Source: Leucoraja ocellata | Lineage: Eukaryota | Assembly (NCBI GenBank): GCA_036785375.1 | Contig: JAWMAR010004428.1 | Span: 1-51,046 of the forward strand | Direction: 5' to 3' | Length of the DNA stretch: 51,046 nucleotides | Part shown: positions 3,001-30,000 of the stretch, one piece after another | Position numbering within the stretch: the stretch's first letter is position 1 | Layout of the letters: every line of letters begins with the position of its first letter | Position numbers: made by a program

Positions 3001-6000
3001 ATGTTCTGGAACTTGTTCACTGATAGTCCTGTGAATGGATAATTAACAAAGGCTCTCGAAAGAGCATTATCTACATGTTAATTTGATATAATGAAACAAA
3101 TTGAAGTATGGTCCAGCTGAGGCACAGGTGAGAGAGGGCAGAGAAACGGGGGTGTGGGGGAGAATGGTGAGCGAGTGGTAGTTACCTAATATTGGAAAAT
3201 TCAATGTTCATACCGCTGGGTTGGAAGCTACCCAAGCGAATGTGTGGGTTGTTTTTTCAGTTTGCATGACGCCTCACTCTGGCTATGGAGGAGGACCAGG
3301 ACAGAAACGTTTATGTTGGAACATGAAGGAGGTTAAAATGGTTAATCACCGCGAGATCCAGTAGGCCTTGGAGGATTGAGAGAAGTTGTCCGGAAAACTG
3401 TGGGCAAGACTCTGCTTGGTAAAGTTGATGTACAGGAGGTGGCATCGAGAACACCGGATACAGTAGGTGAGGTTAGAGGAGGTGCACTTGAACATCTGTA
3501 TTATCTGGGAGGACTGATGGGGTCCCTGGATGAAGGCAAGCGAGGAGATATAGGCACAGGTATTACATCTCCTGCGTTGCAGCGGAACGTACTTGGAGAG
3601 GGGCAGGTTTGGGTGGGGAGGGAGTGTGAATGGAGGTTGTGTGGAGGGAGAGGTCTCTGCGACCAGCAACATGGAGTGGAAATGGGATGATGTAACTGTG
3701 GAGAGAACGCATTGGAGGTGACGGAAATGTCGATGATGCGTTGGTTGCGGAGGCTGGTGGGGAGAAAGGGGAGAATCATGGGAACTCTAACCTGGTTCCA
3801 TCTGGAGGAAGAGGAGACGAGAACAGAAATACGGACTACGAAGGAGACGCCGATGAGGAATCCATGACAGCACGTGTAGGGAAGGGGGAGGGTGTGGACA
3901 ATTACCACATCTTGGATGCCCTAGAATGGAAAGGCTCATCTTGGGAGCAGATGCGACTGAGACGGAGGAATTGAGAGCAGGAGCTGGCGTCTTTGACAGT
4001 GGTGGAGTGGGAGGAAATGTGGAATAGATTACTGTGGGAGTCAGCATGTTTGCAGAACACATACTTTTGGCCTTATTTTACTCTCCCTATATGATCACTT
4101 GGTTACCGGTTTCATGATTTCCCAATTATCCCCTTGATGCCTATTTCCATGTACTTACTGATGAGAATTGGATTTTGCAAATTCAAAGTAAATCGTATAA
4201 TCTGACTTATTATCCAATGTACATTTATCACCCTGGTCTTGATGATGTTTCCCGCTCATTACTAAGCTTTCACAATTAGACTTATGTTCTGCAATGTCTA
4301 GCCTGTGTCTTTAGCTCACATCTTGAGACCACGGGCAATCAACGTGGTGCTTTGTTTTAGTGTCTATGGGATTTGTATGTATGCTCGGACAAAATATGAA
4401 CACATTAATATCGAATTCCACCTGAAGTATTTATTATGCTTGTTCAATTCTTACATTGAGCGAGATTGAAACAGTTCATTGCGACACCAAAGCAAGGTAA
4501 AGCATGATAAGAACAAAGTAACATTCATTTTAACCTGCACAATCTTAAGCATTTACGTGGAATGGATAAAAACGCTTACAAATTAAAATTAACACGCGTT
4601 TATTGATTAGGAAAAAAAAGATCTTTCTTCCAGAAGAAGAATGACGATTAAATATGTTTTTCTACACCTGTCCAGAGTGCAGAGGAACATGTTTTCTTCC
4701 AAGGTTTAGGGCAAAAAATCAAACCAAGTGGTTTAAAATGAAGTCAAAGATTCTGCTTGTGATAAGTTGGTGAGTGATATCAATGCTGTGAAGATCGGCT
4801 TGTCGATCTTGCAGGAAGGGTGAAAGGCACGTGCTGTCTGATGAAACGCCGAGCGTTTGCACCATTTTAAGCCAGGCTTTGGAAACAAGGTATCATGCTA
4901 GATTCACCTGGGAAAGAAAACAAAGCAAATATTATTGGGCCAGCTAAAATCAAGATTTAACATGAATTAAAAAATGATTTTCGTAATATTCGAGTCATGG
5001 AGTCATACAGCCCTGAAACAAGATGTTTGACTTAACTTGTCAATTCCAACCACAGATCCCACCTTAGCTGCTCCCACGTTTGGCTCATATCCATTTAACC
5101 TAACCTGCCCATGTACCTGTCCAAGTATTGTTTAGAAGCGGTTACATTGCCAGTCTCAACTACCTCCAGCTCGTTCCACGTATCGTCAACCATCTGAAAT
5201 AAAAGTTTGCCCTGTCACCTTAAATCTACCACTCTCCCCTTAAACCTATGTACAGTAATTCTTGATATCCTATCTCTAGCTAAAAGGCACTGTACATCTG
5301 CCCTATCCGGGTCCCTTCATCATCTTATACACCTCTATTAGATAACCCGCAGCCTCGTACGCTCCAAGGAACAATGCCCTAATCTGGCCAGCCTTTCCCT
5401 TGATCTCAGCCGCTCAATCTTGGCAATACCCGTGCAAATCGTCTCTGCTCTCTTTTCAATTTAATGACATGCTTCGTGTAGCAGGTCGACCAAAAATTGG
5501 ACGGCGTGGGGGCCGTGCAACAGAATAGCCAGCAGTGCGGTTTTTATGTACAACAATTCTTTTTTTTGGTAAAAAGGGGATTTTGTGTGCGGTGACTAGA
5601 ACCCGTGTATGTTGGAGGCTCCACACCCCCCCCCCCCCCCCCCCCCCCCATCCCCCATATGGTTCACATTGCAGTTGTGAATGACACGTTGTTCGAGTAA
5701 GAACAAAACCGTCCGTGGGCAACTTTCTCTGAACATTTCTTTTCTTTTAGCAAATAATATTTAAAGCAGGAAAGTGAATATAAAACAACGCAGTGGGTGG
5801 AATATTTAGCTGAGGATTGGTGATTCTGGCATGTCAGAGACTGACTCACCACCAATGTCCACGTCACCGCCGGCAACTGTTAGCATCAGAAGGTCATCGG
5901 CGCCACCGTCCGTCGGGAACTGACCGCCCGGACAATCAATGGCTTTACTCTCAGGATCGTCATGGTCACCAGGAACTAGATCTAGGAGGAAGTATAAACC

Positions 6001-27000: not shown

Positions 27001-30000
27001 TTGCCATTTTCCTTTAACCGATTTTCAAGAAGTGGGGAAAGTCTATTTACGTTCACAGTTTCAAACCCGCGTTACAATTTGTGAATCTAGATAATGTAAT
27101 TCAATTCTATGCCTTTCACCGATTGCACAAACTCGGCCCGTGGACAATGCAGTGGACAATTGATCGCATGCACAATAGGCTCATTAATTTAGTGTTATAT
27201 CTCACGAAGTAATAATAATATAAACAGCACAATCGTATCTGACGATTTGGGAATCATTAGGATCATATTTTCTCAGACGTGTATTACGATTATTCAAGTA
27301 TTTAATGCACACGGAAGCAGTACCATTACACATCATGTATAAAACACAGTTCCCATTCTAAACTTCTAAGGACAAGAAGGAGACCATTCAGCCCATCGGC
27401 TCCATACCAAGCACTGTACAACAGTCTCGTTGATTTAATTTACCCTCTCCTTATTTCCTTTCATTCGGGCCCATCAACACTTCTTTCGTCCGTTTGACCA
27501 TTCTACTCAGATAATTTACAGTAGGTAATTAAACTACGTAGCAACAAATCATTGGGATGCGCGAAGAAACGCGAGCACCCGGGCAAACGCGCACAGTCAC
27601 AGGGAAGATGCAAGTGTAATAGCGTGTTATACAGCACCGGTGGTAAGGAATGAACCGAGATCGCTACAACTGGGTGGAAGCAGCGGTAGTAAAATTAAAT
27701 AGAGGATACCGATAACGTGCTCCTTCCAACCAGTAGAGCCACTGCAGGCAGCGTCATAGACCCGACTTCAATGCCGACCTCGGGTGCTGTCAGTGTGGAT
27801 TTTGCACGTTCTCCTAGTGCCTGTGTGGGTTTCCCCCGCGCGTTCTGTTTTTGTCCTACATTCAAAACCGGGCATTTACCCACTGTAAATATTCCCTCAT
27901 GTGCATGAGTGGCAGAATCTTCGGGGAGTTGATGAGAACGGGAAATATAAAACAGGATTAATGATGCAATTGGATGTTTGCTGCTCGCCTGAGACTCGGT
28001 GGTCAAGGGGTCTTTCCATGTTGTTTGTTTAAACCAGAATCTGCAGTTCCTTCCTACACATTTACTTAGATGCCAACGTGGTGTCAATTACACAGGCTCC
28101 AACAGTATTCAATGACGTGATGTTATCTTAACGACAAAATCAGAAGCAAAGTTGGTGTTTGATTTAGCCAGCGCCCAATTTCTGCCGATAATTCACGGAT
28201 GAATATGTCCTGCTTTTGTTTTCTGATTTATATAATGAGGTGGACGGGAATGGAGAAACAGCAGCGGAATATATGCCTGGATTTATCTATAAAGCATCAA
28301 ATGAGATAAATCTTCAAAAAAAAAGAAGTAAAACTCTGAAACTCTCAACAGAGAGAAAACAGAGGTGAGTTCTGTACATCAGTCCCAACGTGGACTGTTT
28401 TACTTTCCTCAGAAGCTGCGGCCCCGCCGAAGGTTCTGTTTGCGCGTCTCACTGCCTCATTATGTATTTAACACGAGGTATATGTAGGAGGTAAAATATC
28501 AAGGCGAAATTTGTGACGGAAATCTGCACTGAACTTTTAACCAACATAGAACAAGTGAAAAGCAATTTAAATAAAATTGCAACATCTCTCTAACTGCGAT
28601 TCTCCACCGAAACAGAATGGAGAATGTACAAATGCCCCGAGAAATAAATGTGTTGCTACTAATAGCCGGACACGCATAGTGCCAAACTGAAAACTCCGTT
28701 GATATATAATGTGACGCATTTGAAGATCATTGACCCTGTGTGGAAATGTCAGCGTCAATATCAGCGAAAATTAATAAAACCTTTCCACCAACAGGTTACT
28801 AACTACATTTTATAAATATGCTCAGTTCACAGTGTGACATGGTGGATAAAAATACCTGCAACTGATCACTATCAGCGGCAAGAATCTGTGTGCGGCTTCA
28901 GTCAGCAAAAGCTGCAGCTTTGGATGCTGTTGTTCACCTCAAGGAGTTTATACTCTCCGGACTCCGATGTACTCTGCCCCAACAGTGACCGCCCTATACC
29001 TCTGATAAATTCAGATTAATAATCTGTTTCTGAATTGCAGTACACAAGACCCGAGCCTTGCGGGTTGACTGATCTGTGACTGAAGAAAATTCCCGTGGAT
29101 GAAATATCACGTTTAAATCTGTTTTCAAAAATCGGAATGGGAAGTTAAATGTGTTAATCTTGGCGACATTATCCAAGTATGTAGCTTATTCCGACGGAAT
29201 TGTGCGACTGTTAAACAAGGACACAAATAGCAAACATTAGAAAATAACTAATTAATTATAGAAAGCAAATAACACATTTCAATATTCCATTCAGCCGTTG
29301 TCAACGTGAATGAGCCTATTGTTTTAATCCACTCTGCTCCTGTGCCCTCATTACAAACACCCAAAGGCCTGATCTGGCCAGGTGGAAAATTCACACGTGA
29401 AGACATTTTTCATCACTTTAATAGATCACTATGTTTTCATCACAACATTTAGAGATACAGACATAAAGGGCTGCAGTAACCCAGCGGGTGAGGCAGCATC
29501 AGTTTGAAGAAGGGGGGCGATTTGAAACGTCACCTATCCATGTTCTCCAGAGAAGCTGCCTGACACGATGTGTTATTACAACAAATTGAGTTTTTTTTGT
29601 AAACCAGCATCTGCAGGCCCTCGTGTCTCCATTCGGAGATACATATTTTCTGATCGACATATCAAACAGAAACAAACTGAAGTTAGCTGTTAATAGAAAA
29701 TGCAGGACGTGGAGCCAGTGGAAGCAACTGAAAAACGTATCGGTATTTCATCAAACGCAACTGAATATTCTGCAGAAAATTCAATATAGGCCAATCGATT
29801 TCAAAAGAAAGGAGATGTAAAGATTGCCGAAAGTCTACTCGATCAGGCAATGTGCATTTCCCTTTGATGGAGTTTATAACATAAACCTTAACCAAAACCG
29901 TGAACATTGAGAAACTATACGATCTACTGAACGTGGCACTAAATAGAAGCGTCAATGAGGTGGACGGGAATTGAGAAACAACAGCTGAATATGTGCCTGA

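What the first reader, a model, noticed from the sequence alone, without database searches (positions are those of the whole stretch)
4867..27266. Complete WC1/SCART-like signalling SRCR receptor in a probable cartilaginous fish
Seen: 7 single-exon SRCR domains, a short linker exon before the last domain, a TM, and a four-exon tail with FYEAIYEEID and QIEYYT. Established: ruminant WC1 is a gamma-delta T-cell co-receptor and pattern receptor that signals through a membrane-proximal YEEL tyrosine. Inference: this is a WC1/CD163c-like lymphocyte co-receptor rather than DMBT1, which would place the system at the base of jawed vertebrates. Most leader and tail exons are missing from the ORF track.
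[Added by the scan's program, not by the reader: the finding's places include an assembly gap (unread letters, written N; its length is only estimated) at 14039 to 14254. Whether the letters on both sides are continuous or in frame is not known: test that first.]
Basis: partly seen in the sequence, partly recalled or inferred. Interest (0 to 1): 0.72.

Follow-up and report, generated by a model that had tools for sequence, protein, structure and literature searches.

The report
Skate WC1/SCART-type scavenger receptor gene
This is a skate gene for a membrane receptor with seven scavenger-receptor domains and a tyrosine-motif tail, related to the WC1/SCART co-receptors of mammalian gamma-delta T cells, but one of its exons is out of frame in this assembly.

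Summary
The stop codon is at 4867-4869 and a candidate ATG at 27266.

"Complete" does not hold. The third SRCR exon is 314 nt, whereas 12 of the 13 internal exons are multiples of 3. It therefore reads out of frame into a stop. A Leucoraja erinacea relative has the intact reading.

The N gap lies inside the D4-D5 intron and touches no exon, but a hidden exon cannot be excluded. A second candidate first exon lies at 31937-31794.

The closest relatives are batoid proteins that NCBI names DMBT1-like or M130-like. Per exon they are 94-100% identical to Leucoraja and Amblyraja models, except D1 at 65-70%.

A per-domain tree places D1, D2/D3 and D6 with the sheep and marmot WC1 a1, c and e domains. 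No domain groups with DMBT1.

The TM and YEEI region aligns with WC1-type tails (hhalign probability 92.5% against 2.7% for a control family).

The family assignment is supported. Lymphocyte co-receptor function is untested.

The parts
27206..27266 (-). Candidate first coding exon L1a: ATG at 27266, MILMIPKSSDTIVLFILLLL, phase-1 GT donor (the hydrophobic part of a signal peptide).
   Evidence: No relative's model contains it. Two Mobula models (P0125, P0127) begin with a hydrophobic leader, and L1a plus L2 give the same total length of 32 residues up to the 'SE' before D1. Inference.
31794..31937 (-). Alternative candidate first exon L1b, outside the finding's range: MDGTNPLMGRFILIGAFEQTAVHALLRSK..., phase-1 donor C|GTTAGT.
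   Evidence: The N-termini of both Rhinoraja longicauda models (P0122, P0123) map here at 85% identity and then splice to the L2 equivalent. It is single-copy within the window.
25163..25195 (-). Leader exon L2 (33 nt, phase 1-1), encoding LPGDCQADPS.
   Evidence: It matches 9 of 9 aligned residues in Amblyraja P0110 and 89% in Rhinoraja P0123.
22023..22379 (-). SRCR D1 exon (357 nt), a1-type. It lacks the cysteine pair C2/C7 and carries a 14-residue acidic Tyr/Trp insert.
   Evidence: Pfam E = 7e-28. Clade with sheep WC1 domain 1 at 97/91, with a long-branch caveat. The same C2/C7 loss is seen in sheep WC1 domain 1. It is the most variable exon among relatives, at 65-70% identity.
20038..20349 (-). 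SRCR D2 exon (312 nt), c-type.
   Evidence: Pfam E = 6e-27. In the c clade at 99/97.
16895..17208 (-). SRCR D3 exon (314 nt), c-type, out of frame as assembled. One base appears to be missing near 17185 between '..RLVGG' and 'KDRC..'. All 8 cysteines are intact in the SRCR frame.
   Evidence: Leucoraja P0121 reads KHRPRLVGGKDRCSGRVEV without a break, and is 95% identical to the window over the rest of the exon.
14773..15087 (-). SRCR D4 exon (315 nt). It lacks C2/C7. The domain type is shared with teleost WC1-type proteins and not seen in the mammalian references.
   Evidence: Pfam E = 5e-25. Clade with eel domain 12 and loach domain 13 at 95/84.
14039..14254 (.). Assembly gap (216 N) inside the D4-D5 intron.
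   Evidence: In 6 of 6 D4-D5 junctions in batoid protein models, D4 is followed directly by D5. The gap's letters were not filled or looked up.
12827..13141 (-). SRCR D5 exon (315 nt), generic d-like.
   Evidence: Pfam E = 6e-35. Its position in the tree is unresolved.
12379..12696 (-). SRCR D6 exon (318 nt), e-type.
   Evidence: Pfam E = 6e-31. Clade with the sheep and marmot WC1 e domains and the teleost penultimate domains at 98/94.
12227..12301 (-). Interdomain (ID) linker exon (75 nt), encoding AEMPETTRGKDCDGGNESKSRRLP, with a GC donor.
   Evidence: It is 100% identical to Leucoraja and Amblyraja. Linkers of 17-27 residues containing Cys occupy the same e-to-last-domain position in sheep, marmot and eel.
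11262..11573 (-). SRCR D7 exon (312 nt), the membrane-proximal domain (d'-position).
   Evidence: Pfam E = 6e-34. Its tree position is unresolved: FastTree puts it beside the WC1 last domain with only 0.41 support.
9325..9456 (-). Stalk, TM helix and first cytoplasmic residues: ISISELRKKPPSTAVVVCTTLGILLIAEFVALVIIARRQSARR. There is a Glu inside the helix.
   Evidence: 98% identical to Amblyraja and 86% to Leucoraja. The TM Glu is present in 12 of 13 batoid TM segments and in 0 of 5 WC1-type references.
8318..8419 (-). Tail exon T1: AELRARGFGFYEAIYEEIDGTLPGNKFSQMDDS. The YEEI tyrosine is about 23 residues after the TM.
   Evidence: The motif is present in 12 of 13 batoid tails (YDEI in one of them).
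6503..6613 (-). Tail exon T2: SGSIDSMNQIEYYTSDPLG...
   Evidence: A YY[TSK] motif at the same spacing is present in 11 of 13 batoid tails.
5850..5981 (-). Tail exon T3: LVPGDHDDPESKAIDCPGG..DDLLMLTVAGGDVDIG.
   Evidence: Mobula and Hemitrygon have YDG[VA] where skates have HDD[PA].
4867..4907 (-). Last coding exon T4: ESSMIPCFQSLA, with stop TAA at 4867-4869. An AATAAA lies about 250 nt downstream.

Best explanation
The window holds one member of a batoid (skate and ray) multigene family of type I membrane receptors. The family belongs to the WC1/CD163c-alpha (SCART) branch of the group B SRCR (CD163) family.

Anatomy, shown:
- a two-exon leader;
- seven SRCR domains, each on one phase 1-1 exon, in the order a1 - c - c - x - d-like - e - [interdomain exon] - membrane-proximal domain;
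- a TM exon;
- a cytoplasmic tail on four further exons.

The tail carries three conserved motifs in a fixed order: FYxAIYEEI(D/E) about 21-25 residues from the membrane, (I/L)EYYT about 31 residues later, and a YDG/HDD acidic motif.

Mechanism, inferred by analogy with bovine WC1:
- The SRCR ectodomain binds ligands such as microbial surfaces. The N-terminal a1-type domain differs most between family members and probably sets specificity.
- When the receptor is clustered with an antigen receptor, Src-family kinases phosphorylate the membrane-proximal YEEI tyrosine. This tyrosine then recruits SH2-domain proteins and strengthens activation.

This particular copy has a one-base frame defect in the third SRCR exon as assembled. 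There are three possibilities: it is an assembly error, the exon is skipped (D2 to D4 stays in frame and gives six domains), or the copy is a pseudogene.
For: Domains and exon structure:
- SRCR domains.
- Exon structure: all introns are phase 1, 13 GT-AG plus 1 GC-AG.

Relatives:
- Searches with the TM and tail region of Amblyraja P0110 and of Mobula P0124 returned only batoid proteins: 5 with E <= 10 among 600 candidates, and 7 among 459.
- They come from Amblyraja, Leucoraja, Rhinoraja, Mobula (2 species) and Hemitrygon, with several genes per species on one contig.
- Rhinoraja and Mobula models show the same 7-domain order plus ID, TM and tail.

Domain tree (IQ-TREE LG+G4, 92 domains):
- D6 with the WC1 e domains of sheep and marmot and the penultimate domains of eel and loach, 98/94.
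- D2 and D3 with the WC1 c domains, 99/97.
- D1 with sheep WC1 domain 1, 97/91.
- D4 with a teleost domain type, 95/84.
- A FastTree of all 256 domains agrees.
- D1 and sheep WC1 domain 1 share the loss of cysteines C2 and C7.

Tail:
- hhalign of the batoid TM-plus-tail profile against the WC1-type profile (sheep, Capricornis, marmot, eel, loach): probability 92.5%, E = 4.8e-7, 54 columns, aligning YEEI with YEEL.
- The same batoid profile against a sauropsid TM-tail family as control: probability 2.7%.
- Cytoplasm only: 20.9%, E = 0.0011, over the 14-column motif, against 0.1% for the control.

Literature:
- WC1 has single-exon SRCR domains, interdomain exons, a TM exon and 4-5 tail exons, and domain 1 is its most variable domain (PMC2681482, passages read).
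- WC1 and CD163c-alpha share the Y-(Q/E)-(D/C/E)-(I/L) motif, and the YEEL tyrosine is needed for co-stimulation (PMC2906472, sections 3, 5, 8 and 10 read).
- WC1 is phosphorylated by Src-family kinases (PMC8356672, passages read).

Variability: D1 is 65-70% identical to Leucoraja and Amblyraja, against 91-99% for D4-D7.
Against: - There are no expression data of any kind, so the cell type is unknown.
- The tail similarity to WC1 does not reach significance in database-scale searches. No non-batoid protein had E <= 10. In the pairwise profile comparison, much of the score comes from the TM helix.
- No b-type domain was found. D5 and D7 are unresolved in the tree and sit in the same polytomy as DMBT1 domains. 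The canonical b-c-d-e-d' cassette is therefore not reproduced exactly.
- No bona fide CD163A, CD163b or mouse SCART sequences were available as references, so placement within the CD163 family is only relative to WC1-type proteins.
- The D1/a1 clade includes long branches flagged by the tool.
- YEAI and YEEI also fit the generic YxxPhi endocytosis signal.
- As assembled, the reading frame is broken in D3.
- PDB comparisons did not discriminate between families.
Confidence: 0.8

Rival explanations
1. It is a CD163A-like endocytic scavenger receptor of macrophages. On this reading the tail tyrosines (YEAI, YEEI) act as YxxPhi sorting signals for ligand uptake rather than as phosphotyrosine signalling sites.
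For: Several batoid relatives are named 'M130-like' by NCBI. Both tyrosine motifs fit YxxPhi (read directly from the sequence). CD163A also has an interdomain exon and a tyrosine motif, YREM (PMC2906472, sections 5 and 10).
Against: According to PMC2906472 section 10, CD163A tails have no significant identity with WC1/CD163c-alpha tails. The batoid TM and tail align with the WC1-type profile. Bovine CD163A has a two-exon cytoplasmic region, whereas this gene has a TM exon plus four tail exons, as in WC1 (PMC2906472 section 5; PMC2681482). No CD163A reference was available for the tree.
Confidence: 0.15
2. This copy is a dead member of an otherwise functional family. On this reading the frameshift in the D3 exon is real, D3 is constitutively spliced, and the transcript ends prematurely.
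For: D3 is 314 nt, and from the phase-1 acceptor it runs into a stop. Large tandem immune-gene families commonly hold pseudogenes (general knowledge).
Against: All other 14 exons are open, with intact splice sites. D3 keeps all 8 cysteines and is 95% identical to the intact Leucoraja D3, so any defect is very recent. The defect lies in a G-rich run where assembly indels are common, and the assembly has gaps. Skipping D3 keeps the frame, and the Amblyraja model P0110 lacks a D3 equivalent.
Confidence: 0.25
3. It is a DMBT1/SSC5D-type secreted mucosal agglutinin, as the automatic names of its relatives say.
For: NCBI names most relatives 'DMBT1-like'. Single DMBT1 SRCR domains in the PDB score about as well as any other SRCR domain (about 110 bits). 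D5 and D7 are not separated from DMBT1 domains in the tree.
Against: A TM helix and a conserved 130-residue tail follow D7. No CUB or ZP domain was found: 0 Pfam families in the 105 minus-strand ORFs of at least 45 aa that were scanned, out of 202 such ORFs outside the D1-D7 stretch. D1, D2, D3, D4 and D6 fall in supported clades that contain no DMBT1, gar SSC5D-like or Mobula DMBT1-like domain.
Confidence: 0.03

Closest known systems
[quoted passage not shown]
   Same: Group B SRCR domains on single exons. An a1-type first domain lacking cysteines C2/C7, which is also the most variable domain between family members. c- and e-type domains. A linker exon before the last domain. A TM exon. A four-exon tail with YEE(I/L) about 21-24 residues from the membrane. 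A tandem multigene family.
   Different: Seven domains in the order a-c-c-x-d-e-d' instead of a-[b-c-d-e-d]x2. No b-type domain was found. There is an extra x-type domain (D4) shared with teleosts. The skate tail has YEAI-YEEI overlapping, and HDD where WC1 has YDD. Batoids have a Glu inside the TM helix that the WC1 references lack. Expression and function are unknown.
CD163c-alpha / SCART1 and SCART2 (mouse gamma-delta T cells)
   Same: The Y-(Q/E)-(D/C/E)-(I/L) tail motif and membrane-proximal e and d' domains, as described in PMC2906472. The marmot 'WC1.1-like' protein P0114 (YQEI) groups with the window's c and e domains.
   Different: No named SCART sequence was available here. According to PMC2906472, bovine CD163c-alpha has a two-exon cytoplasmic region, against TM plus four exons in this gene.
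Teleost 'M130-like' / 'DMBT1-like' TM proteins (eel P0085, loach P0107); a cod m130-like gene is expressed in putative gamma-delta T cells (PMC9276791)
   Same: They share the a, c, x and e domain types in the same relative order, a linker before the last domain (eel), and EAVYEEI(D/E) about 22 residues after the TM.
   Different: The teleost proteins have 15-16 domains and repeated YDDV motifs. They have no TM Glu. It is not known whether the cod gene is orthologous.
CD163A (M130, haemoglobin-haptoglobin receptor)
   Same: A multi-SRCR type I receptor with an interdomain linker. It is the best multi-domain PDB match, though that ranking reflects the number of domains.
   Different: Its tail motif is YREM and its tail is unrelated to the WC1 type (PMC2906472). 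It was not tested in the tree.
DMBT1 / SSC5D
   Same: Group B SRCR domains; this is also the automatic name of the relatives.
   Different: This gene has no CUB or ZP domains and has a TM and a signalling-type tail. Five of its seven domains fall in clades that exclude DMBT1.

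Membership tests
WC1 / CD163c-alpha (SCART) branch of the CD163 family | Group B SRCR domains, each encoded by one exon | tested here: met
   7 Pfam SRCR hits. Each lies in one phase 1-1 exon. Domains have 8 cysteines, or 6 in D1 and D4.
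WC1 / CD163c-alpha (SCART) branch of the CD163 family | N-terminal a1-type domain, the most variable domain among family members | tested here: met
   Clade with sheep WC1 domain 1 at 97/91, with a long-branch warning. Shared loss of C2/C7. D1 is 65-70% identical to relatives against 91-99% for D4-D7. PMC2681482 section 7.
WC1 / CD163c-alpha (SCART) branch of the CD163 family | Membrane-proximal e domain, then an interdomain exon, then the d' domain | tested here: inconclusive
   The e-type assignment is met (98/94) and the ID exon is present. D7 occupies the d' position but is unresolved in the tree.
WC1 / CD163c-alpha (SCART) branch of the CD163 family | The b-c-d-e-d cassette | tested here: not met
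   Two c-type domains (99/97), no b-type domain, and an extra x-type domain shared with teleosts. The order is a-c-c-x-d-e-d'. This is a variant architecture, not the mammalian cassette.
WC1 / CD163c-alpha (SCART) branch of the CD163 family | TM plus a cytoplasmic Y-(Q/E)-(D/C/E)-(I/L) motif close to the membrane | tested here: met
   YEEI at 8361-8390, about 23 residues after the TM. Profile alignment with WC1-type tails at 92.5% against 2.7% for the control. Motif definition from PMC2906472 section 10.
WC1 / CD163c-alpha (SCART) branch of the CD163 family | Tail encoded by 4-6 exons after a separate TM exon (WC1 gene types I-III) | tested here: met
   TM exon plus T1-T4. PMC2681482 section 5.
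WC1 / CD163c-alpha (SCART) branch of the CD163 family | Expression on gamma-delta T cells; tyrosine phosphorylation; co-stimulation with the TCR | not testable with these tools
   No transcript or cell data for skates were available here.
DMBT1 | SRCR repeats followed by CUB and zona pellucida domains; a secreted protein | tested here: not met
   0 Pfam families in the 105 minus-strand ORFs scanned, out of 202 such ORFs outside the D1-D7 stretch. A TM and tail are present. No domain groups with DMBT1 in a supported clade.
CD163A (M130) | Nine SRCR domains including the diagnostic k-type domain; YREM tail; two-exon cytoplasmic region | not tested
   No CD163A reference sequence was available for the tree. 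The tail motif and the number of tail exons differ (PMC2906472).

The most novel reading that the evidence does not exclude
WC1/SCART-type hybrid receptors were already present in the last common ancestor of cartilaginous and bony vertebrates. They would already have been a tandem multigene family with a hypervariable a1 domain and a membrane-proximal YEE(I/L) phosphotyrosine site, and so as old as the gamma-delta TCR itself. In batoids the family acquired an almost invariant glutamate inside the TM helix. That suggests direct assembly with a partner chain carrying a basic TM residue, such as an antigen-receptor chain or a signalling adaptor. No such wiring is known for mammalian WC1.
Probability: 0.2. 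Interest if true: 0.75.

Novelty: new member of a known kind. Interest (0 to 1): 0.5.

Why it matters
WC1 and SCART are the only known lineage-specific co-receptors of gamma-delta T cells. The paper read here traces them only to mammals, birds and monotremes (PMC2906472). A cod paper notes an M130-like gene in putative gamma-delta T cells (PMC9276791).

Showing that skates and rays hold a multigene family with the same domain types, gene structure and tail motif pushes this receptor type back to the crown of jawed vertebrates. It also gives comparative immunologists a concrete marker to test in elasmobranch T cells.

There is a practical point too: the automatic names DMBT1-like and M130-like on these genes are misleading.

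None of four library searches turned up a paper linking WC1, SCART or CD163 with cartilaginous fish. The library misses many subscription journals.

Tried and rejected
- A whole-database search with the D7 exon ranked hits by summed score over all their SRCR repeats. The 120 listed are mostly long DMBT1-named proteins, and the true close relative (P0110, 95% identity) was number 110. That ranking says nothing about family.
- PDB searches with D6, D7 and D1 were dominated in the same way by nine-domain CD163. Single domains of DMBT1 (about 100-112 bits) and CD163 (about 74-91 bits) did not discriminate.
- Pfam found nothing in 18 flanking ORFs except a sub-threshold RVT_1 hit.
- The search of 1.84 billion representatives with Mobula P0124 gave 150 unnamed hits. 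In 11 of the 150, the best stretch runs past query residue 840, that is, through the TM and YEEI region. Whether sharks or chimaeras have the family stays open.
- Tail searches found no shark, chimaera or bony-vertebrate protein with E <= 10. These searches need shared 5-residue words and cover limited length ranges (770-2450 and 530-1687 aa), so this is weak evidence of absence.
- A phase-compatible alternative acceptor or donor that would rescue D3 was looked for and not found.
- A spliced, joined model of the window's exons was not built, searched or folded. All window searches were done exon by exon, and full-length comparisons used database proteins of relatives.
- Supplementary files of the papers were closed. 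The supplements of PMC2906472 and PMC9276791 may list further species or trees that bear on the novelty claim.
- No structure prediction or complex prediction was run.

Full report
**What is there.**

The gene lies on the minus strand. Seven stop-to-stop ORFs match Pfam SRCR (PF00530), with E from 5e-25 to 6e-35. The eighth ORF submitted, which holds the TM segment, matches nothing. A profile built from the seven domains and run over every six-frame ORF of at least 25 aa finds those seven again (E <= 1e-43) and nothing else better than E = 0.79. The read part of the window therefore holds exactly seven SRCR domains.

**Exon model.**

There are fifteen exons, running from an ATG at 27266 to the stop TAA at 4867-4869:

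- L1 27266-27206
- L2 25195-25163
- D1 22379-22023
- D2 20349-20038
- D3 17208-16895
- D4 15087-14773
- D5 13141-12827
- D6 12696-12379
- ID 12301-12227
- D7 11573-11262
- TM 9456-9325
- T1 8419-8318
- T2 6613-6503
- T3 5981-5850
- T4 4907-4867

All 14 introns are phase 1. Thirteen are GT-AG and one is GC-AG (the donor of the linker exon). Every search with window sequence was made exon by exon, and the joined step was left out.

**The gap, tested first.**

The N run at 14039-14254 lies inside the intron between D4 and D5. It is 519 nt from the D4 donor and 898 nt from the D5 acceptor, and on one side it abuts a TG-rich simple repeat. No exon or reading frame crosses it. D4 and D5 are each 315 nt and both phase 1, so they fit whatever the gap's true length.

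In 6 of 6 D4-D5 junctions seen in batoid protein models, the D4-type domain is followed directly by the D5-type domain. An unread exon inside the gap still cannot be excluded from this window. Its letters were not filled or looked up.

**The gene is not complete as assembled.**

Twelve of the 13 internal exons are multiples of three. D3 is 314 nt. Read from its phase-1 acceptor it gives KHRPRLVGG and then leaves the SRCR frame and meets a stop. The SRCR frame (..KDRCSGRVEVLHG.., all eight cysteines intact) is the neighbouring frame.

The Leucoraja erinacea relative P0121 reads KHRPRLVGGKDRCSGRVEV without a break and is 95% identical over the rest of the exon. This copy therefore appears to lack one base in a G-rich run near 17185. 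No alternative splice site restores the frame.

Three readings remain:
- an assembly error;
- a very recent pseudogene;
- an exon that is skipped. D2 to D4 stays in frame, and the Amblyraja model P0110 has no D3 equivalent.

**The 5' end is uncertain.**

L1a (27266-27206) encodes MILMIPKSSDTIVLFILLLL and has a phase-1 donor that fits L2. No relative's model contains it. However, two Mobula models start with a hydrophobic leader of the same total length, 32 residues up to the 'SE' before D1.

Both Rhinoraja models instead begin with an exon that maps to 31937-31794 at 85% identity. That is outside the finding's range. In the window this exon is open from an ATG, is single-copy, and also has a phase-1 donor.

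**Whose gene it is.**

The nearest proteins come from skates. Per exon the window is 94-100% identical to Leucoraja erinacea P0121 for D3-D7, ID and T1-T4 (TM 86%). It is 88-100% identical to Amblyraja radiata P0110 for D4-D7, ID, TM and T1-T4. For D1 it is only 65-70% identical to either. The window therefore comes from a rajid skate and is a further member or allele of a family, not identical to any model seen.

Searches with the TM and tail region of P0110 and of Mobula P0124 returned only batoid proteins:
- 5 with E <= 10 among 600 candidates;
- 7 with E <= 10 among 459 candidates.

The species are Amblyraja, Leucoraja, Rhinoraja, two Mobula species and Hemitrygon, with several genes per species on one contig. 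NCBI names them DMBT1-like or M130-like. Rhinoraja and Mobula models have the same seven domains, linker, TM and tail.

**Family assignment.**

I cut 256 SRCR domains out of 19 named proteins plus the window. A FastTree of all of them and a careful IQ-TREE of 92 of them agree. The 92 comprised:
- all domains of the window, Rhinoraja P0123, Mobula P0124 and sheep WC1.1;
- chosen domains of marmot, eel, loach, otter and axolotl DMBT1, chicken, alligator, two other Mobula proteins, gar and a sea cucumber.

The 164 left out were Leucoraja, Capricornis, Toxotes, Carettochelys, a soft coral, and the inner repeats of the long proteins.

Results of the IQ-TREE:
- D6 sits with the e domains of sheep and marmot WC1 and the penultimate domains of eel and loach (98/94).
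- D2 and D3 sit with the c domains (99/97).
- D1 sits with sheep WC1 domain 1 (97/91), with a long-branch warning from the tool.
- D4 sits with a teleost domain type (95/84).
- D5 and D7 are unresolved, in the same polytomy as DMBT1 and others.

No window domain joins DMBT1, the sauropsid TM family, the other Mobula SRCR proteins or gar in a supported clade. D1 and sheep WC1 domain 1 share the loss of cysteines C2 and C7. The order is a - c - c - x - d-like - e - linker - last domain, which is a variant of the mammalian a-[b-c-d-e-d] plan without a b-type domain.

**The tail.**

Among the named hits, five proteins have a TM followed by EA(V/L)Y(E/Q)E(I/L)(D/E): sheep WC1.1, a Capricornis protein, marmot WC1.1-like, an eel protein and a loach protein. 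Skates have YEAIYEEID at the same distance from the membrane, about 21-25 residues.

Profile-profile comparisons:

| Comparison | Probability | E |
|---|---|---|
| Batoid TM+tail vs WC1-type (54 columns, YEEI on YEEL) | 92.5% | 4.8e-7 |
| Batoid TM+tail vs sauropsid TM-tail family (control) | 2.7% | 0.017 |
| Cytoplasm only, batoid vs WC1-type (14-column motif) | 20.9% | 0.0011 |
| Cytoplasm only, batoid vs control | 0.1% | 0.77 |

The similarity is real but short, and the TM helix contributes much of the score.

Within batoids three motifs keep their order and spacing:
- Y(E/D)EI in 12 of 13 tails;
- YY(T/S/K) in 11 of 13;
- YDG(V/A) in rays where skates have HDD.

**Comparison with the literature.**

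- WC1 and CD163c-alpha share Y-(Q/E)-(D/C/E)-(I/L), and the YEEL tyrosine is required for co-stimulation. CD163A tails are unrelated and carry YREM. CD163A and CD163c-alpha in cattle have a two-exon cytoplasmic region (PMC2906472, sections 3, 5, 8 and 10).
- Src-family kinases phosphorylate WC1 (PMC8356672, passages).
- A cod study found an M130-like gene in T cells that express putative TCR gamma and delta (PMC9276791, passages).

That pYEEI is the preferred ligand of Src-family SH2 domains, and that DMBT1 binds bacteria through a VEVLxxxxW peptide (which D3 also has), are recalled from memory, not from any call.

**How it most likely works.**

Shown: a type I membrane protein with seven SRCR domains, a variable N-terminal domain, and a conserved tyrosine-motif tail homologous to the WC1 type.

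Inferred: it binds ligand through the SRCR domains, and family members differ in specificity through D1. The YEEI tyrosine is phosphorylated on clustering, SH2 proteins are recruited, and activation is strengthened. The cell type is unknown.

**Other domains and neighbours.**

No CUB or ZP domain was found. Of 202 minus-strand ORFs of at least 45 aa outside the D1-D7 stretch, 105 were scanned (those in 1-11262 and 24420-32845), and none matched any Pfam family. The rest of the window holds decayed retroelement pieces and tandem repeats and no other recognisable gene.

**Novelty.**

Four searches found no paper in the library connecting these receptors with cartilaginous fish:
- WC1 + SCART + shark: 0 papers.
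- CD163 + shark + T cell receptor + SRCR: 0 papers.
- SCART1 + cartilaginous: 3 papers. I read one (PMC13017969), where the two terms were unconnected; the other two are versions of one mouse gamma-delta T-cell study, seen only in the listing.
- A broader search requiring any 3 of 6 terms: 685 papers, of which I saw the listing of the top 20; none links them.

The library lacks many subscription journals, and supplements were closed.

The finding is a new member, and a variant architecture, of a known family. Because teleosts and batoids both have the family, it dates to the crown of jawed vertebrates. Sharks and chimaeras remain unchecked: the 150 representatives are unnamed and could not be named.

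Noticed in passing
window 9325-9456 (-), TM exon: A glutamate sits inside the TM helix (..LGILLIAEFVALVII..). It is present in 12 of 13 batoid TM segments seen; Hemitrygon P0130 lacks it. It is present in 0 of 5 WC1-type references (sheep, Capricornis, marmot, eel, loach). A conserved intramembrane acidic residue usually means pairing with a basic residue of a partner chain.
   Followed up: partly
window 22023-22379 (-), D1: D1 has a 14-residue insert rich in Asp, Tyr and Trp (RDYDYPHSWDPWGDYDYD) that the Rhinoraja, Leucoraja and Mobula D1 domains lack. D1 is also the exon that differs most between family members (65-70% against 91-99%).
   Followed up: partly
window 22746-23968: A GC-rich minisatellite (22- and 50-bp units, about 50 and 25 copies, 67% GC) lies in the intron between L2 and D1. 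It is open in all six frames and produces artefactual ORFs of 370-460 aa.
   Followed up: partly
window 30860-31010 and 28989-29139: A 150-bp segment is duplicated at 93% identity. It corresponds to an extra 5' exon of the Rhinoraja model P0122. Together with 31794-31937, this suggests transcribed 5' exons upstream of the finding's end.
   Followed up: partly
sheep P0046 residues 343-376 (and the equivalents after each c domain); marmot P0114: Mammalian WC1-type proteins have a 34-residue linker after each c domain. This is the position where batoids and teleosts have a whole extra SRCR domain (the D4 type). Whether the linker is a remnant of that domain was not tested.
   Followed up: no
window 50189-50420 and 50427-50533: A second assembly gap (232 N) lies directly beside a (GT)n microsatellite. 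A 45-bp tandem repeat is at 49725-50014 and a 24-bp repeat at 34352-34778.
   Followed up: no
window 10091-10897, 25856-26092, 31977-32688, 35185-35568, 48468-48737: Repeated fragments share peptides such as CEVIHFG.KNK..YYLNG and look like the C-terminal part of a LINE open reading frame. Pfam gives only one sub-threshold RVT_1 hit, at 36092-36376.
   Followed up: partly
P0110 (Amblyraja radiata, 1400 aa): This database model fuses two tandem gene copies. The tail exon T2 of one copy is spliced to the L2-type leader exon of the next, and the protein holds two TM segments.
   Followed up: partly
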